Shown: piece by piece, positions 5,517 through 58,540 of the stretch
How the letters are laid out: every line of letters starts with the position of its first letter
How positions within the stretch are numbered: the first letter of the stretch is position 1
Assembly (NCBI RefSeq): GCF_963921235.1
Contig: NC_086097.1
Coordinates: 111,168,001-111,232,000 of the forward strand
Direction of reading: 5' to 3'
Origin: Mobula hypostoma
Lineage: Eukaryota
DNA: 64,000 nucleotides
The notes under the pieces: generated by a model
Database searches by the model: none
What the model was told of the DNA's origin: nothing
What the model saw: only the letters and a program-made list of their open reading frames with translations
Translations under genes and position numbers: made by a program

Positions 5517-6090
5517 TGTATAAAAGAAGTAAGGAGAGAATCTAAACAGCACGAACTGAAGAGCAGTAATCTTTGGTTTACGTCAAGTGTCACATGCTAG
5601 TTAGAGTAGAGAGATAGCTGACGTGAATGTATGCCTGAAGAGCTGGTGCAGGGGGCAGGGATTAAAATTCTTGGTTCTTTGGTATCTCTTCTGGGGTGGG
5701 GCTGACCTGTACAAGACAGAGGGGTTGCACCTGAGCGGGAAGGCTGGAGATTTGCATGTGCTACTCCGGAGGGTTTAAACCAGAGTGGCAGAGGGTAGTG
5801 CCCTGAGCAGTCGAGTGACTGATGAGTAATCAGGGAATAATACTGTAGACAATGGAGGAAATTTAGCTGTCAGGATAGACGGGGAGAGTAAAGGGAGAGG
5901 AAGAACTCTTAAATTTAAACTGCATTTATTTCAATGCAAGCGTTTGACAGATAAGGTGGCTGAACTCAATGTGTGGATTGGCTCTGGGAACTCGGATATC
6001 ATACCCATAATAGAAAACATGGCTGAGGGAAGGACAGGACCTGGAAGCTCACTGTACCAGGATATAATGTAGATACAAATATATTATACA

Positions 6091-9083: not shown

Positions 9084-10727
9084 AACACATACAAAATCCT
9101 GGAGGAACTCAGCAGGCCAGGCAGCATCTATGGAAAAGAATAAATGGTCCATGTTTCAGGCTGAGAGCTTTCATCAAGACTGGAGAAAAAAGAACTCAGG
9201 AAAGAAGGTGGGGGAGGAGAGGAAGAAGTACAAGGTGGTAGGTGATAGGTGAAACTGGGAGGGGTGAAGTAAAGAGCTGGGAAGTTGATTGATGAAAGAG
9301 ATAAAGGGCTAGAGTAGGGGGAATCTGATAGGAGAGGACACAAGGCCATGGAAGAAAGGGAATGGGGAGGAGCACCAGAGGGAAGTGATGGGCAGGTAAG
9401 GAGATAACGTGAGAGAGGGAAAAGGGGATGGGGATTGGTGAGGGGGGGGGGTGGCAGCAATACTGGAAGTTCAGGAAATCAATGTTCATGCCATCATTTT
9501 GAAGGCTACCCAGATGGAATACAAGGTGTTGCTCCTCCAACTTGAGTGTGGCAGTAGAGGAGGCCATGGACTGACATGCTGGAATGGGATTGGGAAGTAG
9601 AATTAAAATGGTGGCCACTGGGAGACCTGCTTTTACTAGCAAACAGAGCATAGGTGGTCAGCAAGGTGGTCTCCCAATTGACGTTATGTCTTACTGATAT
9701 ACAGGAGGCCACACCGAGAGTACTGGATATAGTAGATGACCCCAACAGATTTATAAGCGGTGTTGTCTTATCTGGAAGGACTGTTTGTAGTCCTGAATGG
9801 TAGTGAGGAAGAATGAGTAGGGGCAGGTGTGGTACTTGTTCCACTTGCAAGGGTAAGTACCAGGAGAGAGATCAGTGGGGAGGGCTCAATGTACAAGGAA
9901 GTCGCGTAGGGAGTGTTCCACGTGGAAAAGGGAAAGTGGATGTGGAGGCTAGTGGGGTGCTAGGTGTGGACAAGAGGAATCCTATCTCTGGTGGGGTGGT
10001 AGGTGGATGGGGTGAGGGCAGACATGCACAAAATGGAAGTGATGCGGGTGAGGGCTGTATTGATGGTGGAGGAAGGAAAGCCCCTTTCTTTGAAGAAGGA
10101 CAACATCTTAGTAATTCTGGAATGAAAAGCCTCATCCTGACAGCAGATGTGGTGGAGACGGAGGAATTGAGAGAAGGGGATGGCATTTTTACAAGTAATG
10201 GTGGGAAGAGGTATAGTCCAGGTAGCTGTGAGAGTCCACGGGTTTATAATAGACATCAATAGATAAGCTGTCTCCAGAGATAGAGACAAAGAGATCAAGA
10301 AAGGGGAGGAAGGTGTTTGAAATGAACCGGGTAAATTTGAGGGCAGGGTGGAAGTTGGAGCCATAAGGTGATGAAGCCGACGAGCTGGGCTTGGGTGCAA
10401 GAAGCAGCACCAATGCAGTTGTTGATGTACCATAGGGAAAGTTGGGGAATGATACCAGTGTAGATTTCGAACATAGACTGTTCCATGTAGTGAACAAAAA
10501 GGCAGAAATAGCTGAGACCCATGTGAGTGCTTATGTCTACACCTTTTGTTTGAAGGATGTGGAAGGAGCCAAAGGAGAAATTCTTGGGAGTGAGGGCCAG
10601 TTTTACCAGACGGAAATACACTACAAGATAATAATGACCAGCCCTGAGGAAGGGTCTCGGCCTAAAATGTCGACTGTTTATGCTTTTCCATAGATGCTGC
10701 CTGGCCTGGTGAGTTCCTCCAGCATTT
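9084..10727 (-). mobile_element. Penelope-like element (RT C-terminus plus GIY-YIG) with inverted pLTR at 10637-10727; last ~35 bp lie at 15249-15282
   Basis: Minus-strand remnants VYYKPVDSHSYLDYTSSH, CKNAIPFSQFLRLHHIC, KLEEQHLVFHLGSLQNDGMNIDF. 15-bp TSD (9069-9083 / 15283-15297). Split by the full-length CR1. Confidence 0.9.
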
Positions 10728-10824: not shown

Positions 10825-13800
10825 TCAGAACCCAGCCTTCCCTCCATACCCCCTAACCCCTGTAGCCACAAGGGCCATATCTAACTTCCTTTTAAACATA
10901 GCTAATGAACTGGCCTCAACAGTTTGCTGTGGCAGAGAATTCCACAGATTCACCACTCTCTGTGTGAAGAAGTTTTTCCTAATCTCGGTCCTAAAAGGCT
11001 TCCCCTCTATCCTCAAACTGTGACCCCTCGTTCTGGACCTCCCCAACATCGGGGACAATCTTCCCGCATCTAGCCTGTCCAATCCCTTTAGGATCTTATA
11101 CGTTTCAATCAGATCCCCCCTCAATCTTCTAAATTCCAACGAGTACAAGCCCAGTTCATCCAGTCTTTCTTCATATGAAAGACCTGCCATCCCAGGAATC
11201 AATCTGGTGAACCTTCTTTGTACTCCCTCTATGGCAAAGATGTCTTTCCTCAGATTAGGGGACCAAAACTGCACACAATACTCCAGGTGTGGTCTCACCA
11301 AGGCCTTGTACAACTGCAGTAGTACCTCCCTGCTCCTGTACTCGAATCCTCTCGCTATAAATGCCAGCATACCGTTCGCCTTTTTCACCGCATGCTGTAC
11401 CTGCATGCCCACTTTCAATGACTGGTGTATAATGACACCCAGGTCTCGTTGCACCTCCCCTTTTCCTAATCGGCCACCATTCAGATAATAATCTGTTTTC
11501 CTATTTTTGCCACCAAAGTGGATAACTTCACATTTATCCACATTAAATTGCATCTGCCATGAGTTTGCCCACTCACCCAACCTATCCAAGTCACCTTGCA
11601 TCCTCTTAGCATCCTCCTCACTGCTAACACTGCCACCCAGCTTCGTGTCATCCGCAAACTTGGAGATGCTGCATTTAATTCCCTCATCCAAGTCATTAAT
11701 ATATATTGTAAACAACTGGGGTCCCAGCACTGAGCCTTGCGGTACCCCACTAGTCACCGCCTGCCATTCTGAAAAGGTCCCGTTTATTCCCACTCTTTGC
11801 TTCCTGTCTGCTAACCAATTCTCCACCCACACCAATACCTTACCCCCAATACCGTGTGCTTTAAGTTTGCACACTAATCTCCTGTGTGGGACCTTGTCAA
11901 AAGCCTTTTGAAAATCCAAATATACCACATCCACTGGTTCTCCCCTATCCACTCTACTAGTTACATCCTCAAAAAATTCTATGAGATTTGTCAGACATGA
12001 TTTTCCTTTCACAAATCCATGCTGACTTTGTCCAATCCTTTCACCGCTTTCCAAATGTGCTGTTATCACATCCTTGATAACTGACTCCAGCAGTTTCCCC
12101 ACCACCGACGTTAGGCTAACCGGCCTATAATTCCCCGGTTTCTCTCTCCCTCCTTTTTTAAAAAGTGGGGTTACATTAGCCACCCTCCAATCCTCAGGAA
12201 CTAGTCCAGAATCTAACGAGTTTTGAAAAATTATCACTAATGCATCCACTATTTCTTGGGCTACTTCCTTAAGTACTCTGGGATGCAGACCATCTGGCCC
12301 TGGGGATTTATCTGCCTTCAATCCCTTCAATTTACCTAACACCACTTCCCTACTAACATGTATTTCGCTCAGTTCCTCCATCTCACTGGACCCTCTGTCC
12401 CTTACTATTTCTGGAAGATTATTTATGTCCTCCTTAGTGAAGACAGAACCAAAGTAATTATTCAATTGGTCTGCCATGTCCTTGCTCCCCATAATCAATT
12501 CACCTGTTTCTGTTTGCAGGGGACCTACATTTGTCTTTATCAGTCTTTTCCTTTTTACATATCTATAAAAGCTTTTACAGTCCGTTTTTATGTTCTCTGC
12601 CAGTTTTCTCTCATAATCTTTTTTCCCCTTCCTAATTAAGCCCTTTGTCCTCCTCTGCTGAACTCTGAATTTCTCCCAGTCCTCAGGTGAGCCACTTTCT
12701 CTGGCTAATTTGTATGCTACTTCTTTGGAATTGATACTATCCCTAATTTCTCTTGTCAGCCACGGGTGCACTACCTTCCTTGATTTATTCTTTTGCCAAA
12801 CTGGGATGAACAATTGTTGTAGTTCATCCATGCAACCTTTAAATGCCTGCCATTGCATATCCACTGTCAATCCTTTAAGTGTCATTTGCCAGTCTATCTT
12901 AGCTAATTCACGACTCATACCTTCAAAGTTACCCCTCTTTAAGTTCAGAACCTTTGTTTCTGAATTAACTACGTCACTCTCCATGTTAATGAAGAATTCC
13001 ACCATATTATGGTCACTCTTACCCAAGGGGCCTCTCACGACAAGATCGCTAATTAACCCTTCCTCATTGCTCAAAACCCAGTCCAGAATAGCCTGCTCTC
13101 TAGTCGGTTCCTCGACATGTTGGTTCAAAAAACCATCCCGCATACATTCCAAGAAATCCTCTTCCTCAGCACCTTTACCAATTTGGTTCACCCAGTCTAC
13201 ATGTAGATTGAAGTCACCCATTATAACTGCTGTTCCTTTATTGCACACATTTCTAATTTCCTGTTTAATACCATCTCCGACCTCACTACTACTGTTAGGT
13301 GGCCTGTACACAACTCCCACCAGCGTCTTCTGCCCCTTAGTGTTACGCAGCTCTACCCATATCGATTCCACATCTTCCCGGCTTATGTCCTTCCTTTCTA
13401 TTGCGTTAATCTCTTTTTTAACCAGCAACGCCACCCCACCTCCCCTTCCTTCATGTCTATCCCTCCTGAATATTGAATATCCCTGAACGTTGAGCTCCCA
13501 TCCCTGGTCATCCTGGAGCCATGTCTCTGTGATCCCAACTATATCATAATCATTAATAACAATCTGCACTTTCAATTCATCCACCTTATTACGAATGCTC
13601 CTTGCATTGACACATAAAGCCTTCAGGCACTCTTTTACAACTCTCTTAGCCCTTTTTAATGCTTGCCCTGGATTTGTCGGCCTGCCACTTTTACTTTTCC
13701 CCTTTGTACTTTTTGCTTCTACGCTCACTTTACACCCCTCTGTCTCTCTGCACTGGTTCCCATCCCTCTGTTGTGAACTAACCTCCTCACACCTAGCCTC

Positions 13801-13845
13801 TTTAATTTGATTCCCACCCCCCAACCATTCTAGTTTAAAGTCACC
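10825..13845 (-). CDS. CR1 ORF2: apurinic-type endonuclease plus reverse transcriptase (open frame ~1006 codons; first AUG at 13221)
   Basis: Uninterrupted frame with NARS, GITETW, VYRPP, MGDFN, LDWVL, SDH (EN) and [42 protein letters not shown] (RT). The frame opens at 13845 and overlaps the ORF1 end in -1. Confidence 0.97.
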   Translation of the reverse strand, partial: GDFKLEWLGGGNQIKEARCEEVSSQQRDGNQCRETEGCKVSVEAKSTKGKSKSGRPTNPGQALKRAKRVVKECLKALCVNARSIRNKVDELKVQIVINDYDIVGITETWLQDDQGWELNVQGYSIFRRDRHEGRGGGVALLVKKEINAIERKDISREDVESIWVELRNTKGQKTLVGVVYRPPNSSSEVGDGIKQEIRNVCNKGTAVIMGDFNLHVDWVNQIGKGAEEEDFLECMRDGFLNQHVEEPTREQAILDWVLSNEEGLISDLVVRGPLGKSDHNMVEFFINMESDVVNSETKVLNLKRGNFEGMSRELAKIDWQMTLKGLTVDMQWQAFKGCMDELQQLFIPVWQKNKSRKVVHPWLTREIRDSINSKEVAYKLARESGSPEDWEKFRVQQRRTKGLIRKGKKDYERKLAENIKTDCKSFYRYVKRKRLIKTNVGPLQTETGELIMGSKDMADQLNNYFGSVFTKEDINNLPEIVRDRGSSEMEELSEIHVSREVVLGKLKGLKADKSPGPDGLHPRVLKEVAQEIVDALVIIFQNSLDSGLVPEDWRVANVTPLFKKGGREKPGNYRPVSLTSVVGKLLESVIKDVITAHLESGERIGQSQHGFVKGKSCLTNLIEFFEDVTSRVDRGEPVDVVYLDFQKAFDKVPHRRLVCKLKAHGIGGKVLVWVENWLADRKQRVGINGTFSEWQAVTSGVPQGSVLGPQLFTIYINDLDEGIKCSISKFADDTKLGGSVSSEEDAKRMQGDLDRLGEWANSWQMQFNVDKCEVIHFGGKNRKTDYYLNGGRLGKGEVQRDLGVIIHQSLKVGMQVQHAVKKANGMLAFIARGFEYRSREVLLQLYKALVRPHLEYCVQFWSPNLRKDIFAIEGVQRRFTRLIPGMAGLSYEERLDELGLYSLEFRRLRGDLIETYKILKGLDRLDAGRLSPMLGRSRTRGHSLRIEGKPFRTEIRKNFFTQRVVNLWNSLPQQTVEASSLAMFKRKLDMALVATGVRGYGGKAGF

Positions 13846-14765
13846 TCAGTAGCCCCCGCTAATCTCCCTGCCAGGATATTGGTCCCCCTAGGATTTAAGT
13901 GTAACCCGTCCTTTTTGTACAGGTCACACCTGCGCCAAAAGAGGTCCCAATGATCCAAAAACTTGAATCCCTGCCCCCTGCTCCAATCCCTCAGCCACGC
14001 ATTTATCCTCCACCTCATCGCATTCCTACTCTCACTGTCGCGTGGCACAGGCAGTAATCCCGAGATTACTACCTTTGCGGTCCTTTTTCTCAACTCCCTT
14101 CCTAGCTCCCTATATTCTTCTTTCAGGACCTCATCCCTTTTCCTACCTATGTCATTGGTACCTATATGTACCAGGACCTCTGGCTCTTCACCCTCCCACT
14201 TCAGGATATCTTGGACACGATCAGAAATATCCCGGACCCTGGCACCAGGGAGGCAAACTACCATCCGAGTCTCTGGACTGCGTCCACAGAATCGCCTATC
14301 TGACCCCCTTACTATCGAGTCCCCTATCACAACTGCCCTCCTCTTCCTTGCCCTACCCTTCTGAGCTACAGGGCCAGACTCTGTGCCGGAGGCAGGGCTA
14401 CTGTCGCTTCCCCCGGGTAAGCTGTCCCCTCCAACAGTACTCAAACAGGAGTACCTGTTGTTAAGGGGCACAGCCGCCGGGGTACTCCCCATCACCTGCC
14501 TTTTCCCCTTCCCCCTCCTAACCGTGACCCACTTGTCTGCCTCCTGTGGCCCCGGCGTGACCACCTGCCTTCCACTCCTCTCTATCACCTCCTCGCTCTC
14601 CCTGACCAGACGAAGTTCATCGAGCTGCAGCTCCAGTTCCGTAACGCAGTCCCTTAGGAGCTGCATCTCGATGCACTTGGCGCAGATGTAGACGTCCGGG
14701 AGGCTTGGAGACTCCAGGGCCTCCCACATCCGACACCGAGAACAGCAAACTGCCCTCACAGTCAT
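13830..14765 (-). CDS. CR1 ORF1: zinc finger, leucine zipper, SGNH/GDSL esterase domain (311 aa)
   Basis: CCSRC..CAKC, LELQLDEL heptads, GDSIVRG, HIGTND and DGLHL motifs. ATG at 14765, TAG at 13830. Confidence 0.95.
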   Translation of the reverse strand: MTVRAVCCSRCRMWEALESPSLPDVYICAKCIEMQLLRDCVTELELQLDELRLVRESEEVIERSGRQVVTPGPQEADKWVTVRRGKGKRQVMGSTPAAVPLNNRYSCLSTVGGDSLPGGSDSSPASGTESGPVAQKGRARKRRAVVIGDSIVRGSDRRFCGRSPETRMVVCLPGARVRDISDRVQDILKWEGEEPEVLVHIGTNDIGRKRDEVLKEEYRELGRELRKRTAKVVISGLLPVPRDSESRNAMRWRINAWLRDWSRGQGFKFLDHWDLFWRRCDLYKKDGLHLNPRGTNILAGRLAGATEVTLN

Positions 14766-14927: not shown

Positions 14928-15248
14928 CCTTTTAAATCTGCCGCGCTGCACTGCCCGACGTCACACGCCTGCGCAGTCCCGCCTCTCAGAAAGCCGTTGG
15001 AGAAAAAAAATAACGAAAATTTCAAAAATCTCTTTCTCGGCACTCCCACTCAGACTCTCAGACTCCTTCTTCGAATCAAATCCGAAGCAGGATGTCTGCC
15101 CTTTTAAATCTGCCGCGCTGCACTGCCCGACGTCACACGCCTGCGCAGTCCCGCCTCTCAGAAAGCCGTTGGAGAAAAAAAATAACGAAAATTTCAAAAA
15201 TCTCTTTCTCGGCACTCCCACTCAGACTCTCAGACTCCTTCTTCGAAT
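14928..15248 (-). promoter_or_regulatory. Two tandem promoter-like monomers (period 172 bp) in the CR1 5' UTR
   Basis: 14928-15076 equals 15100-15248. Minus strand reads gaggcgggac (GC box), tgcgcaggcg (NRF1-like), tgacgtc (CRE-like), then gatttaaaagg (TATA-like). Function is inferred. Confidence 0.6.
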
Positions 15249-18520: not shown

Positions 18521-20410
18521 GACCATAAGATAAAGGAGCAGAAGTAGGCCATTCGGCCCATCGAGTCTGCTCCGCCATTTTATCATGAGCTGATCCATTC
18601 TCCTATTTAGTCCCACTCCCCCGCCTTCTCACCATAACCTTTCATGCCCTGGCTACTCAGATACCTATCAATCTCTGCCTTAAATACACCCAATGACTTG
18701 GCCTCCACTGCTGCCCGTGGCAACAAATTCCATAGATTCACCACCCTCTGACTAAAAAAATTTCTTTGCATTTCTGTTCTGAATGGGCGCCCTTCAATCC
18801 CTAAGTCATGCCCTCTCGTACTAGACTCCCCCATCATGGGAAACAACTTTGCCACATCCACTCTGTCCATGCCTTTCAACATTCAAAATGTTTCTATGAG
18901 GTCTCCCCTCATTCTTCTAAACTCCAAGGAATATAATCCAAGAGCGGACAAACGTTCCTCATATGTTAACCCTCTCATTCCTGGAATCATTCCAGTGAAT
19001 CTTCTCTGTACCCTCTCCAACGTCAGCACATCCTTTCTTAAATAAGGAGACCAAAACTGCCCACAGTACTCCAAGTGAGGTCTCACCAGCACCTTATGGA
19101 GCCTCAACATCACATCCCTGTTCCTATACTCTATTCCTCTAGAAATGAATGCCAACATTGCATTTGCCTTCTTCACCACTGACTCAACCTGGAGGTTATC
19201 TTTAAGGGGATCCTGTACGAGGACTCCCAAGTCCCATTGCATCTCAGAACTTTGAATTCTTTCCCCATTTAAATAATAGTCTGCCCGTTTATTTTTTCTG
19301 CCAAAGTGCATAACCATACAGTTTCCAACATTGTACTTCATTTGCCACTTCTCTGCCCATTCTTCCAATCTATCCAAGTCTCTCTGCAGACTCTCCGTTT
19401 CCTCAGCACTACCGGCCCCTCCACCTATCTTCGTATTGTCAGCAAACTTAGCCACAAAGCCATCTATTCCATAATCCAAATCATTGCTGTACAATGTAAA
19501 AAGAAGTGGCCCTAACACGGACCCCTGTGGAACACCACTGGTAACCGGCAGCCAACCAGAATAGGATCCCTTTATTCCCACTCTCTGTTTCCTGCCAATC
19601 AGCCAACACTCTATATGTAACTTTCCCGTAATTCCATGGGCTCTTATCTTGTTAAGTAGCCTCATGTGTGGCACCTTGTCAAAGGCCTTCTGAAAATCCA
19701 AATATACAACATCCACTGCATCTCCCTTGTCTAGCCTACTGGTAATTTCCTCAAAAAATTGTAATAGGTTTGTCAGGCAGGATTTTCCTTTAAGGAATCC
19801 ATGCTGAGTTCTGCCTATCTTGTCAAAAACTTCCCAACCACCGATGTTAAGCTAACAGGTCTATAATTTCCTTTTTGCTTCCTTGCCCCCTTCTTAAATA
19901 GTGGAGTGACATTTGCAATCTTCCAGTCTTCCGGAACCATGCCAGAATCTATCAACTTTTGAAAGATCATCGCTAACGCCTCCGCAATCTCCACAGCTAC
20001 TTCCTTCAGAACATAAGGGTGCATTCCATCTGGTCTGGGAGATTTATCGACCTTTAGCCTATTCAGCTTCCTGAGTACTTTCTCTGTCGTAATTGTGACG
20101 GCGCACACTTCTCTTCCCTGCCGCCCTTGAGTGTCCGGTATACTGCTGATGTCTTCCTCAGTAAAGACTGATGCAAAATACTTGTTCAGTTCCTCTGCCA
20201 TCTCCTTATCTCCCATTACAATTTCTCCAGCTTCATTTTCTATCAGTCCTCTATCTACTCTCACCTGTCTTTTACTCTTTATATACTTGAAATTTTGATA
20301 TTATTTGCTAGCTTCCTTTCATAGTTAATCTTTTCTCTCTTAATGACCTTCTTGGTTTCCTTTTGTAAGGTTTTAAAAACTTCCCAATCCTCTGTCTTCC
20401 CACTAATTTT
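18521..20410 (-). mobile_element. 5'-truncated CR1 with internal deletions, inserted in the PLE arm
   Basis: ORFs 19815-20264, 18883-19716 and 18607-18882 are CR1 RT pieces, with a tcttatgg-type tail. Same family as 33256-36648. Confidence 0.95.
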
Positions 20411-22802
20411 AAGGTGTAATAAGGTGTTGTTCCTCCAACCTGAGTGTGGCTTCATCTTTACAGTAGAGGAGGCCGTGGATAGACATGTCAGAATGGGAAT
20501 GGGATGTGGAATTAAAATGTGTGGCTGCTGGGAGATCCTGGTTTCTCTGGCCGACAGAGCATAGGTGTTCAGCAAAATGGTCTCCCAGTCTGAGTCGGGT
20601 CTGGCCAATACATAGAAGGCCACATCGGGAGCACCGGACGCAGTATATCACCCCAGCCGACTCACAGGTGAAGTGTCGCCTCACCTGGAAGGACTGTCTG
20701 GGGCCCTGAATGGTGGTAAGGGAGGAAGTGTAAGGGCATGTGTAGCACTTGTTCCGTTTACAAGGATAAGTGCCAGGAGGGATATCAGTGGGGAGGGATG
20801 GGTGGGGGAACGAATGGACAAGGGAGTCGTGCAGGGAGCGATCCCTGTGCAAAGCGGGGGTGGCGGGGGGAGAGAAAGATGTGCTTAGTGGTGGGATCCT
20901 GTTGGAGGTGGCGGAAGTTATGGAGAATAATATGTTGGACCCGGAGGCTGGTGGGGTGGTAGGTGAGGACCAGGGGAACCCTATTCCTGGTGGGGTGGTG
21001 GGGAGATGGAGTGAGAGCAGATGTGCGTGAAATGGGGGAGATGCGTTTGAGAGCAGAGTTGATGGTGGAGGAAGGGAAGCCCCTTTCTTCAAAACAGGAG
21101 GACATCTCCCTCATCCTGGAATGAAAAGCCTCATCCTGAGAGCAGATTCGGCGGAGGTGGAGGAATTGCGAGAAGGGGATGGCATTTTTGCAAGAGACAG
21201 GGTGAGAAGAGGAATAGTCTCGATAGCTGTGAGAGTCAGTAGGCTTATAGTAGACATTAGTAGATAAGCTGTCTCCAGAGATAGAGACAGAAAGATCTAG
21301 AAAGGGGAGGGAGGTGTCGGAAATGGACCAGGTAAACTTGAGGGCAGGGTGAAAGTTGGAGGCAAAGTTAATAAAGTCATTTGCATTGTTTGCATTGACT
21401 TTTGCATTGCCAAAGTTTGCATTGGTGCTGCTTCCTGCACACATGCTGAGCTCATTTGCATTGGCGCTGCTTCCTGCACGCATGCTGAGCTCGTTGACTT
21501 TATTAACTTTGCCTCTAACTTTCACCCTGCCCTTGAGTTTACCTGGTCCATTTCCGACACCTCCCTCCCCTTTCCAGATCTTTCTGTCTCTATCTCTGGA
21601 GACAGCTTATCCACTGATGTCTACTATAAGCCTACTGACTCTCACAGCTATCTGGACTATTCCTCTTCTCACCCTGTCTCTTGCAAAAACGCCATCCCCT
21701 TCTCGCAATTCCTCCGTCTCCGCCGCATCTGCTCTCAGGATGAGGCTTTTCATTCCAGGACGAGGGAGATGTCTTCCTTTTTTAAAGAAAGGGGCTTCCC
21801 TTCCTCCACTATCAAGTCTGCTCTCAAATGCATCTCCTCCATTTCACGCACATCTGCTCTCACTCCATCCTCCCGCCACCCCACCAGGAATAGGGCTCCC
21901 CTTGTCCTCACCTACCACCCCACCAGCCTCCGGGTCCAACATATTATTCTCCGTAACTTCCACCACCTCCAACGGGATCCCACCACTAAGCACATCTTTC
22001 CCTCCCCCCCCTCTGCTTTCCGCAGGGATCGCTCCCTACACAACTCCCTTGTCCATTCGTCCCCCCATCCCTCCCCACTGATCTCCCTCTTGGCACTTAT
22101 CCGTGTAAGCGGAACAAGTGCTACACATGCCCTTACACTTCCTCCCTTACCACCATTCAGGGCCCCAGACAGTCCGTCCAGGTGAGGCGACACTTCACCT
22201 GTGAGTCGGCTGGTGTGATATACTGCATCCTGTGCTCCCAATGTGGCCTTCTATATATTGGCGAGACCTGACGCAGACTGGGAGATCATTTTGCTGAACA
22301 CGTACGCTCTGTCCACCAGAGAAAGCAGGATCTCCCAGTGGCCACACATTTTAATTCCACATCCCATTCCCATTCTGCTATGTCTATCCACGGCCTCCTC
22401 TAATGTAAAGATGAAGCCACACTCAGGTTGGAGGAACAACATCTTATACTCCGTCTGGGTAGCCTCCAACCTGATGGCATGAACATTGACTTCTCAAACT
22501 TCCGCTAATGCCCTACCTCCCCCTCGTACCCCACCCTTTATTTATTTATATATACACATTCTTTTTCCCTCTCTCCTTTTTCTCCCTCTGTCCCCCTCAC
22601 TATAACCCTTGCCCATCTTCTGGGCTTCCCCACCCCCTTGTCTTTCTCCCTTGGCCTCCTGTCCCATGATCCTCTCATATCCCCTTTCCCATCACCTGTC
22701 CAGCTCTTGGCTCCATCCCTCCCCCTCCTGTCTTCTCCTATCATTTTGGAGATCCCCCTCCCCCTCCCACTTCCAAATCTCTTACTATCTCTTCTTTCAG
22801 TT

Positions 22803-25258: not shown

Positions 25259-28200
25259 ATGGAACATAGAATTCTACTAATACTAATAAATAAAACAGAA
25301 GTATGTGTTAAAATAAACCGGGCCTCTAAGTCTCTGGTCACGCCAACCCCAGCGGAAAAGAACAAGCGACGCTCGGTTTATCCGACTACGAAAGCCCCAA
25401 TCAATAAGGACACGGAGAGGAAAATTGCAAAGTACAAGAGACAAAGCAATTTGTTGGGCGACCCGCTTCCCCGCCCCGTTCGCCCGCCGATAAGGTTTGG
25501 TTGGAAACGGGACAGCAGGTACTCCATTACATTTTCCATTGATTTATATGGAGGTTATTGAAGTTCCAGAGGGATGGCAACAAGGGACCCCTGAACGAGC
25601 TCAGCCTGTGGCTGCACCGGCCGCTCCGTGGACCGGAACCCGCCCGATTCTTCCAGAGTTTACCGGCCGGGACGGACTCTCCGTTCGCGGAGAGTCGAGT
25701 TTCCACCAGACACCCGACAGCACCACAAGAGGAGGGAATTCTCAATTCCCCCGGGTAATGGTGGTCGATGTCCCTATTTTAAAACCCTGGACCCCGGCTG
25801 AGGTACGCAATGTGATCAGCGACGTGTGTGATCCTGATCCACTAAGAAAACCTGTAGCGCTTCCTCAGACCTGTCAAATATTGAACCCGCTGCCTGGCGA
25901 TTCACGGGCGCTCCTCCGTATACGGAACTTCATCGGCAGTGGTGGAGGCAACTTCCCGCTCACCAATGCTACTCCTGAGGAAGACTGGCGACCGGGATTC
26001 AGCGAGGATGCCCTACAGGCTATGGAAACGTGGGTGCGCGAAATTAGAATCCAAACCTTGTCACCGCCCGACAACATGGGAACTGCGGAGAAGTTAACCG
26101 GTGCATGTAAAAAAGAGAAGGGCCGCCACTGACTTCGTAGCTCGATTTAAAGACATCTGGGAATCAAACGCGGGAGTATCCCTGAACCAGCAAAATGCCC
26201 CGTTGGCTGTACAACCCTTCCTTCACTGTCTCCGACCGGAGGTCGCCCATTGCCTTTAAATTGGTCCAGTCTGAACAGGCAGACCCAGCAATGGAATGTG
26301 GAAACCCAGATTCTGACCAACACGGAGCGAAACCAGTTGCTTAAGGTCACGAGAAAAAGGAGACACTTTTTCCATAAGGGGAGTGGAAGGCGGGAGTTCG
26401 GCTAATGGTTTGCGACCAGAGACGGGACGTTGTGTAGGAAATTTGGGCGAAAGGGGGATTGGGCCAGAGAGTGCCGAGGCAAAGTGGAGGGACTGGATAG
26501 GAGAGGGCAGGGAGAAAAGATGTCCCGCAAAAATCCCCGGAACTGACACCTTTCACTCTGCGTGACCCCTTCGGGCCCCAACAGGGAGGCCACCAGGGAA
26601 AGGCGATACAAGAGGCTATGATCAGTCTCTGTGAGAGCCCTCAGGGGGATCTATTCCTGGAAACGGAAATAGCTAAGAAACGAGTACGGCCTAATTGATT
26701 CCGGCGCCACTATATCGTCCATAAGCCCCTCTGTAGACTGTAACAACCGTGGGGATAGCCGGAGTCCCCGTGACGAATCCACAATCTCAGCTCACAGAAA
26801 TTAGAGTAGAAGGTAGAGAGGCGAGGAAGCGTTTGTTATAGCCAGTAACTCACCCGTAATCCATTGCACTCCCGAGGGATTGTATCTGGAGCTGCCCAAT
26901 GAAAAGGTGCCCGAACTTCGTTATAAGATGCTCCAAAAACAACGGGACCCACAGAAACGCAGGCGGCTTTATATGTCTGGGATATAGAAGGGCTTCCCTG
27001 GGGAAACTGGCCGTGGCAATGAATAATGACAAACGTGAGGGTTCGGGGATTCTTGAGAGAATTCGTAAATTCCTGCAAGCTGGCAACTGCATTGCGCTGT
27101 CCCGCCGCCTTCCGAGACCCTGATCCCGGTGGTGATTATCGTAAAAAGGCAGGAAAGACTATTGCAGGCATTGGGTCCCTGAATACAGGATCTATGACGC
27201 GACCGTTCGGGAGCCTTTGATACAAACTGGACCGAGGAAATGGAAGCGACCTTCACCACGGCTCGCTGAACGAGCTAGGGAATGATGTTGCGAAGTAAAT
27301 CTAACCTCTCTTTTCAAAAAGCACTAGCCCGAAATCGTTCCCCCGCAATGCCTCTCCCTGGTCCTCCCAAACCCCATGATTGCCGGAAAGTAGTCGAGAT
27401 GATCACCTCGCTCGGGCCCGATCTGTTAGCTACTCCACTAGATAACCCGATCTTTTTAGACAATAGGTGCAGGAGTAGGCCATTCGGCCCTTCGAGCTAG
27501 CACCGCCATTCACTGTGATCATAGCTGATCATCCACAATCAGTACCCCGTTCCTGCCTTATCCCCATATCCCTTTTATTTTCTTTTTATGGACGGCTCCC
27601 CCTGCAAGCCCAATTATCATACGATCCTGGCAGGTTATATAATTGTCACACCCTTCGAGACACTGGAGGCAGCGGCCCATCCCCAGGCACAACCGCTCGG
27701 GCAGCTGTGCTATTCGCGTTAACCCGGGGCTGTGTCTTGGCCGCCGGTAAGACCGCCAATACGTATACTGACTCTCGTTGTACCTTTGGGGTGGTACACG
27801 ATTTCGGGACCCTGTGGAAAAACAGGTGATTTATTACCTCATCTGGGAAGACTGTACAACACGCCAGTTTGATCGCTAACCTGCTGCAGGCGGTGCAGCT
27901 GCCAAATAGTTCAGCGATAATCGAGAGCGACGCACCTACTGGTGCCACGGATCCCATAACACTGGACAATGCGGCAGCAGATACAGCAGCCAAGTAGGCT
28001 GCTGCTGGAGGCGTGCGCCCACAGGTCCCTGTCCAAGCTGTGTGTCAAATTGCAACTCCCCCCGGGGCCCACCCTAGAGGGCCTAGTAGCGGCCTAAAGA
28101 TCTGCCCCACCCTAGGAAAAGCTTGACAAGGCCAAATGTATTCCCGACCCCAAGGATGTGTGGCGCCACCCTGCTGGGCGGCCGGTTTGTCCCGAGAGTC

Positions 28201-28342: not shown

Positions 28343-29493
28343 TGATGATTTTGCCAAATCATCTCGGGATTACTGTATGTACCACGTGACAGTATAGGAA
28401 TAGAATGAGGTGGAGGATAAATGCGTGGGCTGCGGGATTGGAGCAGGGGGCAGGGATTCAGATTTCTGGATCATTGGGACCTCTTCTTGGGGCAGGTGTG
28501 ACCTGTACAAAAAGGGCGGATTGCACTTGAATCCCAGGGGGACCAATATCCTGGCGGGGAGGTTTGCAAAGGCTATTGGGGAGAGTTTAAAAGGGGATTG
28601 CTGGTGGGTGGGAACCAAACTGAAGAGACGGAGGAAGAGGTGGTTGGCTCACAAATAGAGAAAGTTTGGAGACGGTGCGAGAGGGAGGATAGGCAGGTGA
28701 TAGAGAAGGGACGCGCTCAGACCGATGGTTAGAGATGTGTCTATTTTAATGCAAGGAGTATTGTGAACAAAGCGGATGAACTTAGAGCATGGATCAGTAC
28801 TTGGAGCTATGATGTTGTGGCCATTACAGAGACCTGGATGGCTCGGGCAGGAATGGTTACTTCAAGTTCCAGGCTTTAGATGTTTCAGAACGGACAGGGA
28901 GGGAGACAAAAGAGGTGGGGGCATGGGACTGTTGATCAGAGATAGTGTCACGGCTGCAGAAAAGGAGGAAGTCATGGGGGGGTTGTCTACGGAATCTCTG
29001 TGGGTGGAAGTTAGAAACAGGAAGGAGTCTATAGCTCTGATAGATGTTTTTTATAGACCACCCAATAGTGACAGGGACATCGAGGAGGAGATAGGGAGAC
29101 AGATTCTGGAAATGTGTAAAAATAACAGGGTTGTTGTGGTGGGTGATTTTAATTTCCCAAATATTGATTGGCATCTCCCTAGAGCAAGGGGTTTAGATGG
29201 GGTGGGAGTTTGTTAGGTGTGTTCAGGAAGGTTTCTTGACACAATATGTAGATAAGCCTACAAGAGGAGAGGCTGTACTTGATCTGGTATTGGGAAATGA
29301 ACCTGGTCAGGTGTCAGATCTCTCAGTGGGAGAGCATTTTGGAGATAGTGATCACAATTCTATCTCCTTTACCATAGCATTGGAGAGGGATAGGAACAGA
29401 CAAGTGAGGAAAGCATTTAATTGGAGTAAGGGGAAATATGAAGCAATCAGGCAGAAACTTGGAAGCATAAATTGGGAACAGATATTCTCAGGG
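28343..29493 (+). mobile_element. CR1-A, 5' part (ORF1 end, endonuclease), inserted in ERV integrase
   Basis: LHLNPRGTNILAG, NARS, YRPPN, GDFN and SDH motifs. Ends at NWEQIFSG, where an LTR element begins. Confidence 0.9.
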
Positions 29494-29886
29494 TGTCACA
29501 ATGGGGGCGCTGGTAGCAGACCCAAATGCAAGACACAGACACTGAAGTACAAGGAGCAGGACTTGACGAGAGCAGGGACGTGACAGGGTATAGACTAGGA
29601 GCAGGGACAAGAACGCAGACTTGGGCTGGGACCCTGAGCCAGAGACTGGACAAGGACCCAGAACCTGGGTCTTGCCTCGGGCTCGGACCCCAGAGCTAGG
29701 CAAGGACATGACATGGATACAGGACAGGATGAGGCTGGGGTCATGAGGCTTGCAGACAGGCTGGGGTCTTGGTGTCTTGAGGCTTGCAGACAGGCTGGGG
29801 TCTTGGGGTCTTGAGGCTTGCAGACAGGCTGGGGACTTGGGGTCTTGAGGCTTGCAGACAGGCTGGGGTGTTGGGATCTTGAGGCT
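29494..29886 (-). mobile_element. Partial LTR of the non-autonomous Gypsy array, with 4 x ~34-bp internal repeat
   Basis: tgtcacaatggggg.. is homologous to 37585 and 39299. Preceded by the TSD half caggg (29489-29493). Confidence 0.85.
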
Positions 29887-30490
29887 TTTGCTCCCGGTGT
29901 GGCTTCCTGTATATCGGAGAGACCCGACGTAGGTTAGGAGACCGCTTCACCAGGCACCTACGCACTGTCCACCAGAAGTGGGATCTCCCAATGGCCACCC
30001 ATTTTAATTCCACTTCCCATTCCCGTTCCGATATGTCAATCCGTGGCCTCCTCTACTGTTGCAATGAGGCCACACTCAGGTTGAAGGAGCAACACCTTAT
30101 ATTCCGTCTGGGTAGCCTCCTACCTGATGTCATAAACATCAATTTCTCGAACTTCCAGTAATGGCTCCCCCCTCTTCACCTTTACCCCTCTCACCTTATC
30201 TGCTTCCCTACCCATCGCCTCCCTCTGGTGCCCCCACCCCCCTTTTCTTCCATGGCCTTCTACCCTCTCCTATCAGACTTCCACTTTCCAGCCCTGTATC
30301 TCTTTCACCAATCAACTTCCCAGCTACTTACTTCATCCCTTCCCCTCCCAGTTTCACCTACCTTGTGTTTCTCTCTACTCCACCCACCAAACTTTTTTTC
30401 TCTCCAGTCCTGCCGAATGGACTCTGCCCAAAACATCGACTGTACTTTTTTCTGCAGATGCTGCACTTTATGTGTGTGTTGCGTATACCT
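29887..30490 (+). mobile_element. PLE 3' fragment (GIY-YIG plus pLTR); inverted duplicate of 40470-41064
   Basis: CSRCGFLYIGET..LGDRF. Shares a private pLTR deletion (gatgctgcactttatgtg) and a few flanking bases with the copy at 40470. Confidence 0.88.
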
Positions 30491-33255: not shown

Positions 33256-36200
33256 TAAGGTCCTGAAGAGAGATTTCCAGGAGTTAGGAAGGAAGCTGAG
33301 AAGCAGGACCTCCAGGGTAGTAATCTCGGGATTGCTACCTGTGCCACGTGCCAGCGAGGGCAAGAGTCGTCGGATCAGGCAGATGAATGCCTGGCTGAGA
33401 GACTGGTGTAGGGGACAGGGCTTCAGATTCTTGGATAATTGGGATCTCTTCTGGGGAAAGTATGACCTGTTCAAAAAGGACAGGTTACACCTGAACCCGA
33501 AGGGGACCAATATCCTGGTGGGAAAGTTTAATAGAGCTGTTAGGGAGGGTTTAAACTAACTTGGCAGGGGGATGGGAACTGGAACGATAGGGCGGAGGAA
33601 GGGGAAAACAGAAATAAATCTAAGATAGTGAGCAGTAAAGATGTCAGGAAAGACAGGCAGGTGATAGGGCAAATGTGTAGCCATTGGGATGAGTTGAAGT
33701 GCAATAAAGTTGCAGTGAAATCAAAGCAAAAAGTATCAAATACTGGTCTTAAGGTCTTGTACTTAAATGCACGCAGCATAAGGAATAAGGTGGATGATCT
33801 TGTTGTACAGCTACAGATTGGCAGGTATGATATTGTGGCCATCACTGAGACCTGGCTAAAGGATGCATGTCTCTGGGAGCTGAACGTCCAAGGATACATG
33901 GTGTATCGGAAGGATAAGAAGGTAGGCAGAGGGGGAGGCGTGGCTTTATTGGTAAGAAATGATATTAAATCATTAGAAAGAGGTGATATAGGATCGGAAG
34001 GTGCAGAATCTTTATGGGTTGAGCTAAGGAATAGCAGGGGTAAAAGGACCCTGATGGCAGTTATTTATAGGCTTCCAAACAGCTGCAGGGATTGTGGACT
34101 ACAAATTACAACTGGAAATAGAAAAGGCTTGTCAGAAGGGCAGTGTTATGATAATTGTGGGGGATTTTAACATGCGAGTAGATTAGAAAAATCAGGTCGG
34201 CACTGGATCTCAAGAGAGAGAATTTGTAGAATGTCTGCGAGATGGCTTTTTAGAACAGCTTGTTGTTGAGCCCACTAGGGGATCGGCTGTACTGGATTGG
34301 GTATTGTGTAATGAACCGGAGGTGATTGGAGAGATTGAGGTGAAGGAACCCTTAGGAGGCAGTGATCATAACATGATTGAGTTCACCGTGAAATTAGAAA
34401 AAGAGAAGCCGAAATCTGATGTGTCGGTGTTTCAGTGGAGTAAAGGAAATTACAGTGGCATGAGAGAGGAACTGGCCAAAGTTGACTGGAAAGAGACATT
34501 GGCAAGAAAGACGGCAGAGCAGCAGTGGCTGGAGTTTATGTGAAAAATGAGGAATGTGCAAGACAGGTATATTCCAAAAAAGAAGAAATTTTCGAGTGGA
34601 AAAAGGATGCAACCGTGGTTGACAAGAGAAGTCAAAGCCAAAGTTAAAGCAAAGGAGAGGGCATACAGGGAAGCAAAAATTAGTGGGAAGACAGAGGATT
34701 GGGAAGTTTTTAAAACCTTACAAAAGGAAACCAAGAAGGTCATTAAGAGAGAAAAGATTAACTATGAAAGAAAACTAGCAAATAATATCAGAGAGGATAC
34801 TAAAAGCTTTTTCAAGTATATAAAGAGTAAAAGACAGGTGAGAGTAGATATAGGACCGATAGAAAATGATACTGGAGAAATTGTAATGGGAGATGAGGAG
34901 ATGGCAGAGGAACTGAACAAGTATTTTGCATCAGTCTTCACTGAGGAAGACAGCAGGATACCGGACACTCAAGGGTGGCAGGGAAGAGAAGTGTGCGCAG
35001 TCACAATTACGACAGAGAAAGTACTCAGGAAGCTGAATAGGCTAAAGGTCGATAAATCTCCTGGACCAGATGGAATGCACCCTCGTGTTCTGAAGGAAGT
35101 AGCTGTGGAGATTGCAGAGGCATTAGCGATGATCTTTCAAAAGCTGATAGATTCTGGCATGGTTCCGGAAGACTGGAAGATTGCAAAAGTCACTCCGCTA
35201 TTTAAGAAGGGAGCAAGGAAGCAAAAAGGAAATTATAGACCTGTTAGCTTGACGTCGGTGGTTGGGAAGTTGTTGGAGTCGATTGTCAAGGATGAGGTTA
35301 CAGAGTACCTGGAGGCATATGACAAGATAGGCAGAACTCAGCATGGATTCCTTAAAGGAAAATCCTGCCTGACAAACCTATTACAATTTTTTGAGGAAAT
35401 TACCAGTAGGCTAGACAAGGGAGATGCAGTGGATGTTGTATATTTGGATTTTCAGAAGGCCTTTGACAAGGTGCCACACATGAGGCTGCTTAACAAGATA
35501 AGAGCCCATGGAATTACAGGAAAGTTACATACGTGGATAGAGCGTTGGCTGATTGGCAGGAAACAGAGAGTGGGAATAAAGGGATCCTATTCTGGTTGGC
35601 TGCCGGTTATCAGTGGTGTTCCACAGGGATCAGTGTTGGGGCCACTTCTTTTTAAATTGTACATCAACGATCTGGATTATGGAATAGATGGCTTTGTGGC
35701 TAAGTTTGCTGACGATACGAAGATAGGTGGATGGAGGGGCCAGTAGTGCTGAGGAAACGGAGAGTCTGCAGAGAGACTTGGATAGATTGGAAGAATGGGC
35801 AGAGAAGTGGCAAATGAAGTACAATGTTGGAAAGTGTATGGTTATGCACTTCGGCAGAAAAAGTAAACGGGCAGACTATTATTTAAATGAAGAATTCAAA
35901 GTTCTGAGATGCAACGGGACTTGGGAGTCCTCGTACAGGATTCCCTTAAAGTTAACCTCCAGGTTGAGTCAGTAGTGAAGAAGGCGAATGCAATGTTGGC
36001 ATTCATTTCTAGAGGAATAGAGTATAGGAGCAGGGATGTGATGTTGAGGCTCTATAAGGCGCTGGTGAGACCTCACTTGGAGTACTGTGGGCAGTTTTGG
36101 TCTCCTTATTTAAGAAAGGATGTGCTGACGTTGGAGAGGGTACAGAGAAGATTCACGAGAATGATTCCGGGAATGAGAGGGTTAACATATGAGGAACGTT

Positions 36201-50034: not shown

Positions 50035-50295
50035 TATACAATATACATCCTAAAATTCTTTTTATCAAAAAGCATCCACGAAAACAGAGTGCCCCAAAGG
50101 ATGAATGACAGTTAAACGTTAGAACTTCAGCTCTCCCCTCCCACGCACAAGCAGCAGCCAGGCAACAACCCCCCTCCTTCACCAGCAAAAGAGCATCGGT
50201 GCCCACCACCGAGCACTGGTGTGCATTAAAGCATCAACAAAGACACAGACTTGCAGAACCCCAAAGACTGCTCACGCACCCAGTAATTCAACATA

Positions 50296-51961: not shown

Positions 51962-51989
51962 AAAGAACCTTGATATCGAAGGTGTTCTT

Positions 51990-58169: not shown

Positions 58170-58540
58170 CAATAGGTGGCTGAGGAGCTGGTGAAGAGGG
58201 AGGTCTTCAGATTTATATTTCACTGCACTCTCTTCCAGGGCAGGTGGGACCAGTACAAGGACAATGGTTTGCATCCAAACTGGCTGGGAACCAATATCCT
58301 TGCTGGAAGATCAGCTTGTGCTTCTCCAGAGGATTTAAGCTGGAGTAGCAAGGGGATGGGAGCCACATCAGTGAGGTAACAGTGGGATAGGGTTGAGGGC
58401 AAGAAAGATGGCTGAATAAGTAACTTGGAAAGGAAGGACAGCAAGGGACAGGCGAGTAAAAATAGTGGGATTGATGGGCTGAAATTTGTTTATTTTAGTG
58501 TGAGGTGTGTTATGGGTAAGGAGGATGAACTTGGAGCTTA
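58170..58540 (+). mobile_element. Old CR1 ORF1/ORF2 junction fragment
   Basis: YKDNGLHPNWLGTNILAGR followed by a decayed ORF2 N-terminus. Confidence 0.7.

What the first reader, a model, noticed from the sequence alone, without database searches (positions are those of the whole stretch)
13824..13845. Conserved U_UUA_AAC slippery heptamer plus stop at the CR1 ORF1/ORF2 junction: candidate -1 programmed ribosomal frameshift
Seen: in the intact CR1, ORF1 ends ACT TTA AAC TAG (heptamer 13839-13833, in X_XXY_YYZ phase). The -1 frame (TTT AAA CTA GAA TGG TTG..) is ORF2 and stays open for ~1000 codons. The first in-frame AUG is at 13221, ~200 codons in and inside the endonuclease (MGDFN). The AUG just after the stop (13828) is in the third frame and closes after 8 codons. 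A different CR1 family has GGT TTA AAC TAA at 33548-33559, again with the -1 frame open into ORF2 (that family does have an in-frame AUG before EN). Older copies keep TTTAAAC (5774-5780), TTTAAAA (28586-28592) and TTTAAGC (58334-58340), although the sequence after them diverges apart from G-runs. Known: UUUAAAC is a canonical -1 frameshift site in RNA viruses, whereas L1 ORF2 uses termination-reinitiation. Inference: these CR1s make an esterase-EN-RT fusion by frameshifting, possibly stimulated by the adjacent stop and the G-rich downstream tract. I cannot check whether this has already been published.
Basis: partly seen in the sequence, partly recalled or inferred. Interest (0 to 1): 0.78.

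Follow-up and report, generated by a model that had tools for sequence, protein, structure and literature searches.

The report
Ribosome slip signal in CR1 LINEs
In the most common vertebrate jumping gene (CR1), the first gene ends on a conserved seven-letter slippery sequence plus a stop, followed exactly ten letters later by five G's, and the second gene continues one base back, often with no start codon, so its copying enzyme is likely made by ribosomes slipping back one base.

Summary
Observation confirmed. The intact CR1 (about 15248-10728, minus strand) ends ORF1 with T TTA AAC TAG. The -1 frame opens 2 codons before the heptamer, runs to the ORF2 stop, and has its first AUG inside the endonuclease. 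Across 21 junction lineages (ray families, bird-type and deeper relatives) TTA AAC is kept in 21, the upstream wobble T in 19, and GGGGG exactly 10 nt after the heptamer in 19; flanks are about 40% identical. The linker to the endonuclease has 0 stops in 673 -1-frame codons; 6 of 14 lineages have no AUG before it. 135 of 190 ORF1 homologs end Leu-Asn; distant ones switch to Gly-Asn, Lys-Asn or Gly-Phe, fitting other strong heptamers (protein-level inference). No conserved RNA structure was found. Best reading: -1 programmed frameshifting giving an ORF1-ORF2 fusion (0.8), probably helped by the G-run. No product was measured; some lineages have an AUG next to the stop. Not found described for CR1 in the searchable papers; four key papers were not held. 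This scan noted the same site at least seven times before, on this and other genomes.

The parts
14928..15248 (-). 5' leader with a 172-nt unit in 1.9 tandem copies (start of the element)
   Evidence: Tandem Repeats Finder, 100% match; sequence
13830..14765 (-). ORF1, 311 aa plus TAG: N-terminal Cys pairs, SGNH/GDSL esterase domain at residues 146-294; ends Thr-Leu-Asn
   Evidence: Pfam PF13472 E 3e-16; 97% to a named Mobula hypostoma protein
13833..13839 (-). Slippery heptamer U_UUA_AAC in X_XXY_YYZ phase with ORF1
   Evidence: conservation
13830..13832 (-). ORF1 stop codon (TAG) directly after the heptamer
   Evidence: a stop at this place in 18 of 21 lineages (TAG 11, TAA 6, TGA 1)
13817..13822 (-). 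G-run (six G here; five G conserved) starting 10 nt after the heptamer; candidate 3' stimulator, not predicted to be in a conserved fold
   Evidence: folding z -0.35
13846..13848 (-). TGA that closes the -1 frame two codons before the heptamer, so ORF2 cannot start further upstream
   Evidence: (open frame begins at 13845)
13620..13833 (-). Linker of about 70 codons in the -1 frame, Lys/Arg-rich, stop-free and AUG-free, between junction and endonuclease
10825..13845 (-). ORF2 frame: APE endonuclease and reverse transcriptase; first AUG at 13221, inside the endonuclease
   Evidence: Pfam PF03372, PF14529, PF00078
10728..10830 (-). 3' UTR with terminal stem-loop and 8-nt tandem tail
   Evidence: fold z -2.2; 8-nt unit x3.4
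33550..33571 (+). Junction of a second CR1 family: TTTAAAC, TAA, 7 nt, GGGGG
   Evidence: ORF2 56% identical to the first
5774..5780 (+). Decayed copy: exact heptamer, stop mutated, G-run with one change
28586..28592 (+). Decayed copy: heptamer with one change, stop lost, G-run with one change
58334..58340 (+). Decayed copy: heptamer with one change, stop lost, four-G run at the same distance

Best explanation
CR1 LINEs keep a slippery U_UUA_AAC, a stop and a five-G run at the end of ORF1, and their ORF2 protein is likely made by -1 programmed ribosomal frameshifting as an ORF1-ORF2 fusion. Shown: the sequence layout, its conservation at synonymous sites, the open -1-frame linker and the frequent lack of an AUG. 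Inferred: most ribosomes stop at UAR and release the 311-aa ORF1 protein; a minority pause with tRNA-Leu and tRNA-Asn on UUA AAC, re-pair on UUU AAA and read on through the linker into the endonuclease and reverse transcriptase (predicted product 1313 aa). Least certain: the pause would come from the adjacent stop plus something that binds or folds on the G-run just outside the mRNA entry channel (a G-tract-binding host protein, ORF1 protein itself, or a G-quadruplex), not from a classical pseudoknot. The fusion would set a low, fixed ORF2:ORF1 ratio and tie the enzyme into the ORF1 multimer, as Gag-Pol does in retroviruses.
For: (1) Synonymous-site conservation in 21 lineages: heptamer positions 2-7 in 21 of 21; position 1 (an ORF1 wobble) T in 19 of 21 under seven different amino acids; flanks 39-40% identical. 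(2) Proteins: 135 of 190 ORF1 homologs that end near the last esterase helix end in Leu-Asn, including named shark, ray, coelacanth, frog, turtle, squamate and hummingbird proteins. The residue before Leu is one lacking a T-ending codon (E/Q/K/M/W) in 2 of 135, against 49 and 53 of 135 at the next two positions. (3) In a distant unnamed group the ends switch to Gly-Asn (11), Lys-Asn (3), Gly-Phe (2), Glu-Asn (2); Gln precedes Gly-Asn in 9 of 11 and Leu-Asn in 0 of 135, as G_GGA_AAC would need. [quoted passage not shown] (4) Endonuclease in the -1 frame in 14 of 15 recognisable lineages; linkers of 35-73 codons hold 0 stops in 673 codons against 46 and 74 in the other frames; no AUG before the endonuclease in 6 of 14; the -1 frame is closed within 6 codons upstream in 14 of 21. 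(5) GGGGG at spacer 10 in 19 of 21 lineages, including two ORF2 wobble positions that are G in 21 of 21; 10 nt is the spacing of the protein-bound arterivirus motif (PMC7618472 passage).
Against: No frameshift product was measured. No 3' stem-loop or pseudoknot: 100-nt folds have z between -2.4 and +1.2 with no common structure, and no conserved long-range partner for the G-run was found. 8 of 14 lineages do have an in-frame AUG before the endonuclease, four of them at codon 4-5, and 2 of 21 have an overlapping UAAUG. In published consensus sequences of named species the G-run is looser: exact GGGGG at spacer 10 in 6 of 18 junction-like rows, a run of four or more G starting at spacer 6-10 in 12 of 18 (read by eye; low-confidence consensus ends). 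About 40 of 190 homolog ends fit no obvious heptamer at the stop, and no DNA could be obtained for the Gly-Asn, Lys-Asn or Gly-Phe types. The lineages are related, so counts are not independent trials, and the heptamer was located by best match inside an 85-nt window. No natural in-frame ORF1-ORF2 family was found.
Confidence: 0.8

Rival explanations
1. Termination-reinitiation: ribosomes stop at the ORF1 UAR and restart in the -1 frame close by, at an overlapping AUG where there is one and at a non-AUG codon where there is not, giving a separate ORF2 protein as described for SART1 and L1. The conserved letters would be a reinitiation signal.
For: UAAUG stop-start in 2 of 21 lineages and 3 of 18 published consensus rows; AUG at codon 4-5 in 4 of 14 lineages. 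PMC2881922 (passage) says ORF2 of SART1 and L1 depends on ORF1 translation by reinitiation or recruitment. That L1 ORF2 tolerates loss of its AUG is recalled, not read here. An open linker is expected under this model too.
Against: It does not explain why the two codons before the stop and the wobble base before them form X_XXY_YYZ, nor the switch to other slippery-compatible ends. The window's family has its nearest AUG in the wrong frame and 15 out-of-frame AUGs before the first in-frame one. AUG position is not conserved (codons 4 to 39, or none).
Confidence: 0.12
2. The heptamer, stop and G-run are kept for a reason other than decoding: an RNA-binding or packaging site, an internal promoter (TATA-like TTTAAA plus G-box) or a splice signal that yields an ORF2-only message; Leu-Asn is kept for protein reasons.
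For: TTTAAA resembles a TATA variant and CTAG a 3' splice site (recalled consensus). G-runs are common protein-binding sites (recalled). No RNA run on record was available to test transcripts.
Against: An ORF2-only message would still lack an AUG before the endonuclease in 6 of 14 lineages. The AG is absent in the TAA and TGA lineages (7 of 21). The motif is always in phase with ORF1 codons and with the -1 frame, which a promoter or binding site would not need. A protein constraint cannot fix synonymous bases.
Confidence: 0.05
3. Both routes coexist: frameshifting is ancestral, and lineages that gained an AUG beside the stop make most ORF2 by reinitiation while the heptamer persists.
For: Four of 14 lineages have an AUG within 5 codons, somewhat more than the one or so expected from Met frequency (rough estimate, not computed).
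Against: Those lineages keep the exact heptamer and G-run, so the signal is still under selection there.
Confidence: 0.15

Closest known systems
Vertebrate canonical CR1 LINEs with esterase ORF1 (PMC13343379, section 15; PMC3905857 passages)
   Same: Esterase ORF1, APE+RT ORF2, 3' stem-loop with 8-nt tail; the same junction letters appear in that paper's CR1 consensus rows for alligator, crocodile, bowfin, bullfrog, chimaera, coelacanth, bearded dragon, sawfish, stingray, catshark and dogfish.
   Different: The main text of PMC13343379 has no occurrence of 'translat', 'slip', 'overlap' or 'start codon'; no mode of ORF2 translation is given in the passages seen.
Dictyostelium TRE5-A and TRE3-A (APE-type non-LTR elements)
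   Same: A review figure legend states that both require a -1 frameshift for ORF2 translation (PMC5911963).
   Different: Amoebozoan elements with a different ORF1 and a zinc-finger ORF2 end; the primary paper was not held, so whether the shift was measured, and on what signal, is unseen.
Retroviral and coronaviral -1 PRF (U_UUA_AAC of IBV; Gag-Pol logic)
   Same: Same heptamer class and phase; structural protein in the zero frame, polymerase in the -1 frame (PMC5009743 passages).
   Different: No stem-loop or pseudoknot 5-9 nt downstream; stop directly after the heptamer; no protease domain found to cut the fusion.
Protein-stimulated PRF of arteriviruses (nsp2 site, nsp1beta/PCBP on a C-rich motif)
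   Same: Short sequence motif 10 nt after the shift site instead of a fold (PMC7618472 passage).
   Different: Motif is G-rich, not C-rich; no binding protein is identified; the +1 frame is closed at once by a TAA inside the heptamer, so no -2 product.
SART1 and mammalian L1 termination-reinitiation
   Same: Bicistronic LINE RNA with ORF2 dependent on ORF1 translation (PMC2881922 passage); UAAUG occurs in a few CR1 lineages.
   Different: Most CR1 lineages lack a stop-start and instead keep a slippery heptamer; the two primary papers were not held.

Membership tests
Canonical vertebrate CR1 LINE | ORF2 with APE endonuclease and reverse transcriptase | tested here: met
   PF03372, PF14529, PF00078 above cut-off
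Canonical vertebrate CR1 LINE | SGNH esterase ORF1 | tested here: met
   PF13472 60.9 bits; groups with named vertebrate ORF1 proteins
Canonical vertebrate CR1 LINE | 3' stem-loop followed by short tandem 8-nt tail, no poly(A) | tested here: met
   the feature itself is recalled
Canonical vertebrate CR1 LINE | RT phylogeny inside the CR1 clade against reference elements | not tested
   No reference RT set was at hand; the junction matches rows labelled CR1
Canonical -1 PRF cassette | X_XXY_YYZ heptamer in phase with the zero frame, conserved at synonymous sites | tested here: met
Canonical -1 PRF cassette | Overlapping -1 frame that is open from the heptamer and lacks its own conserved start | tested here: met
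   0 stops in 673 codons; no AUG in 6 of 14, variable position in 8 of 14
Canonical -1 PRF cassette | Stem-loop or pseudoknot 5-9 nt downstream | tested here: not met
   (nested-structure folding and duplex scan; no dedicated pseudoknot program)
Canonical -1 PRF cassette | Transframe product shown | not testable with these tools
   no ribosome-profiling or proteomic data reachable
Protein-stimulated PRF (arterivirus nsp2 type) | Short unstructured motif about 10 nt after the shift site | tested here: met
   GGGGG at spacer 10 in 19 of 21 lineages; weaker in published consensus rows, 6 of 18 exact
Protein-stimulated PRF (arterivirus nsp2 type) | C-rich motif bound by PCBP with a viral protein | tested here: not met
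   motif is G-rich
Protein-stimulated PRF (arterivirus nsp2 type) | A trans-acting protein is required | not testable with these tools
   needs binding and reporter assays
UAAUG termination-reinitiation (SART1 type) | Overlapping stop-start at the ORF1/ORF2 junction | tested here: not met
   absent in the window's two intact-junction families; present in 2 of 21 lineages

The most novel reading that the evidence does not exclude
Esterase-type CR1 LINEs, from rays to birds and beyond vertebrates, make their reverse transcriptase as a Gag-Pol-like fusion through a -1 frameshift whose stimulator is a new kind: no RNA fold, but a stop codon plus a five-G run 10 nt downstream that is read by a protein (a host G-tract binder or ORF1 protein itself), which would let the host or the element tune retrotransposition at the ribosome.
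Probability: 0.3. Interest if true: 0.9.

Novelty: new variant of a known kind. Interest (0 to 1): 0.7.

Why it matters
CR1 is the dominant retrotransposon group in most vertebrates (PMC13343379 abstract), and how bicistronic LINEs translate ORF2 has been answered, in the review passages seen, only from L1 and SART1. A conserved frameshift would give a second answer, change what the CR1 enzyme is (an esterase-endonuclease-RT fusion inside the ORF1 multimer), correct ORF2 annotations that start at an internal Met, and guide construction of an active CR1 reporter. A structure-free, G-run-dependent stimulator would extend the short list of non-classical frameshift signals. The test is one reporter construct.

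Tried and rejected
Local 3' RNA structure: no conserved fold in 21 lineages, window z -0.35. G-quadruplex: lowered the energy in 4 of 21 lineages only, and the deep lineages have one G3 tract; not excluded as an intermolecular form. Long-range pairing of the G-run: best duplexes fell at different places; a hit on the 3' terminal stem-loop in the window's family was not kept in other families. Natural in-frame ORF1-ORF2 fusions: 4 long proteins among 799 candidates; two are nested insertions with RT before esterase, one a gene model over a copy with a shifted junction, one not read; weak search. DNA for non-Leu-Asn lineages: none in viral contigs, prokaryote genomes or the own genome at E 1e-45. 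Expression: no RNA holder listed; contigs of four runs cover the stretch in short pieces and showed no dominant joint across the junction among the rows shown, which says nothing firm about splicing. Stop-codon readthrough and -2/+1 shifting: rejected because the endonuclease is in the -1 frame and the other frames close. Polymerase slippage: runs of three T and three A seem too short (reasoning only). Dropped before the 21-lineage counts: 5 of 26 clusters (one false anchor, one rearranged copy, one interrupted 3 nt after the heptamer, two interrupted members of an already counted family); with them the counts are exact heptamer 22 of 26 and GGGGG at spacer 10 in 20 of 26. Papers not held: PMC1190309, PMC1356112, PMC7528939, PMC364087.

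Full report
Observation. The window holds an intact CR1-type LINE on the minus strand, from about 15248 to 10728. ORF1 (14765-13830, 311 aa) has an SGNH esterase domain; the ORF2 frame (13845-10825) has an APE endonuclease and a reverse transcriptase. ORF1 ends ACT TTA AAC TAG. The -1 frame is closed by a TGA two codons before the heptamer, so the two frames overlap by only 16 nt. Its first AUG is at 13221, codon 209, well inside the endonuclease, and 15 out-of-frame AUGs lie before it. The best named ORF1 match is a Mobula hypostoma protein at 97%, so the host is a ray; the genome is 3.48 Gb and the family has at least 150 copies identical over the queried 106 residues.

Conservation in proteins. 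Of 254 ORF1 homologs from two searches, 209 could be anchored at the last esterase helix and 190 end within 2-20 residues of it; 135 of these end Leu-Asn. They include named proteins of rays, sharks, coelacanth, frogs, turtles, squamates and a hummingbird. The residue before Leu varies over 13 amino acids but is one without a T-ending codon in only 2 of 135, against 49 and 53 of 135 one and two places further back. This is what U_UUA_AAC requires and what a protein constraint would not. In a distant group with no named member (40 rows, support 88 on a FastTree of the esterase domain without the tail; 131 of 185 eligible rows plus loci were used) the ends change to Gly-Asn (11), Lys-Asn (3), Glu-Asn (2), Gly-Phe (2) and Phe-Arg (4). 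Gln precedes Gly-Asn in 9 of 11 and never precedes Leu-Asn. [quoted passage not shown] This switch is inferred from protein ends only; about 40 of the 190 ends fit no obvious heptamer at the stop, and I could not fetch DNA for these lineages.

Conservation in DNA. Junctions were anchored with a profile that stops 12 columns before the ORF1 end. In 864 kb of unselected sequence (window plus 80 stretches) there were 18 anchors: 10 with an exact heptamer, 7 with one or two changes, 1 weak anchor with none (read by eye). With loci from own-genome searches and 47 metagenome loci, 160 anchors gave 150 segments in 26 clusters; 124 of 150 have the exact heptamer, but four young or top-scoring families make up 119 of them. 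At cluster level 22 of 26 are exact. After dropping five clusters (listed under Tried and rejected), 21 lineages remain: heptamer positions 2-7 are invariant, position 1 is T in 19, a stop follows in 18, while the 48 nt upstream and the 7-nt spacer are 39-40% identical between lineages. TTA makes up 29 of 186 Leu codons and AAC 60 of 140 Asn codons in the same elements. Four metagenome loci group with named hummingbird proteins; three fall outside all named vertebrate proteins, with ORF2 41-45% identical to the window's. One deep lineage has G_UUA_AAC, a variant the review notes for equine arteritis virus. The lineages are related and the heptamer was picked as best match within 85 nt, so the naive probabilities overstate the case.

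The G-run. Five G start exactly 10 nt after the heptamer in 19 of 21 lineages (20 of 26 clusters; 105 of 124 exact-heptamer copies). The first and fourth G are wobble positions of ORF2 codons and are G in 21 of 21, under Gln, Lys, Leu, Arg, Gly and Ser codons for the first, so this is a nucleotide signal. In 800 kb of unselected DNA only 4 of 199 TTTAAAC have it. In the consensus library of PMC13343379 (first 400 letters of each row only; rows found by the heptamer itself; 22 of 23 places shown) 18 rows look like junctions, from 12 named vertebrates; 6 have GGGGG at spacer 10 and 12 have four or more G starting at spacer 6-10 (read by eye). So the run is general but its exact spacing is less strict there, possibly because those consensus ends drop bases. 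No conserved local fold and no conserved distant partner were found. Classical stimulators lie 5-9 nt downstream; the arterivirus motif that binds nsp1beta/PCBP lies 10 nt downstream (PMC7618472 passages). A bound protein is therefore my preferred guess for the stimulator, at low odds.

The -1 frame is translated from the junction. In 15 of 21 lineages the start of the endonuclease was recognised; 14 have it in the -1 frame and one decayed copy in +1. The 14 linkers are 35-73 codons long and contain 0 stops in 673 codons, against 46 and 74 in the other two frames. Six of 14 have no AUG before the endonuclease; in the other eight it lies at codon 4, 4, 5, 5, 16, 29, 38 or 39. The endonuclease part upstream of the window family's first AUG is under purifying selection (dN 0.041, dS 0.187 against its sister family; pN 0.28, pS 0.78 between two AUG-less families), whereas the linker's amino acids are not. 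So translation enters the -1 frame at or just after the heptamer.

Mechanism. The simplest account is tandem slippage: tRNA-Leu and tRNA-Asn move from UUA AAC to UUU AAA, the next codon read is CUA, and the product runs Leu-Asn then Leu-Glu-Trp into a basic linker, for 1313 aa in all. Slippage with the stop in the A site would give the same peptide. Reinitiation next to the stop also predicts an open linker, and UAAUG or a near AUG occurs in a minority of lineages, so it is the real rival; it does not predict the heptamer. Steps shown: layout, conservation, frame. Steps inferred: the shift, the fusion, the roles of stop and G-run.

Comparison with what is known. Eight full-text searches on CR1 or non-LTR frameshifting gave no paper that describes this site. 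Seen as passages only: PMC5009743 (first 300,000 of 449,034 characters searched; no 'CR1'), PMC11835228, PMC2881922, PMC3905857, PMC4255032, PMC7618472, PMC5911963 (TRE5-A and TRE3-A 'require a -1 frameshift'). PMC13343379: passages, section 15, supplement part 1 and one supplement search. Not held: the SART1, L1, CR1-esterase and DRE primary papers. The original chicken and turtle CR1 papers and Repbase notes were not seen and may mention the overlap. This scan reported the same site at least seven times, one note mentioning a G-run; a search of the notes for a fixed-spacing G-run stimulator found nothing. Those notes are not independent support.

Verdict. A real, deeply conserved signal; most likely a -1 programmed frameshift in CR1 LINEs (0.8). 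It is a known kind of recoding in a family where I did not find it described, with an unusual candidate stimulator. Interest 0.7.

Noticed in passing
window 14928-15248 (-): The CR1 5' leader has a 172-nt unit in 1.9 perfect tandem copies, like the monomer promoters of some L1 families (comparison recalled).
   Followed up: partly
window 52866-52872 (-), remnant 52500-53614: A sixth, old esterase-ORF1 remnant (25-28% identity) whose end has two changes in the heptamer, a TGA and no G-run.
   Followed up: partly
window 20409-22185, 9960-10661, 42956-43660: ORFs with Cys-pair motifs resembling the RT end and GIY-YIG endonuclease of Penelope-like elements (resemblance recalled).
   Followed up: no
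window 48141-48737 (-): ORF resembling the C-terminal restriction-like endonuclease of R2/NeSL-type non-LTR elements (resemblance recalled).
   Followed up: no
window 50100-52050: About 1.9 kb pyrimidine-rich low-complexity array, GC skew -0.9.
   Followed up: no
window 29488-29946, 37808-38423, 39593-40150: A dispersed repeat with internal tandem units appears at least three times (translations).
   Followed up: no
window 25494-26132 (-): A 212-codon open frame of unknown kind, Pro-rich, not matched to any library here.
   Followed up: no
proteins P0036, P0056, P0140, P0255: Database proteins that run from the esterase straight into Phe-Lys-Leu and the linker: single copies or gene models in which an indel joined ORF1 to the -1 frame. 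Some CR1 pieces carry host gene names in RefSeq models, and one (P0021) is labelled as bacterial, likely contamination.
   Followed up: partly
L079 around 679: A deep lineage with G_UUA_AAC and the five-G run 3 nt closer (spacer 7), with an intact 973-codon -1 frame.
   Followed up: partly
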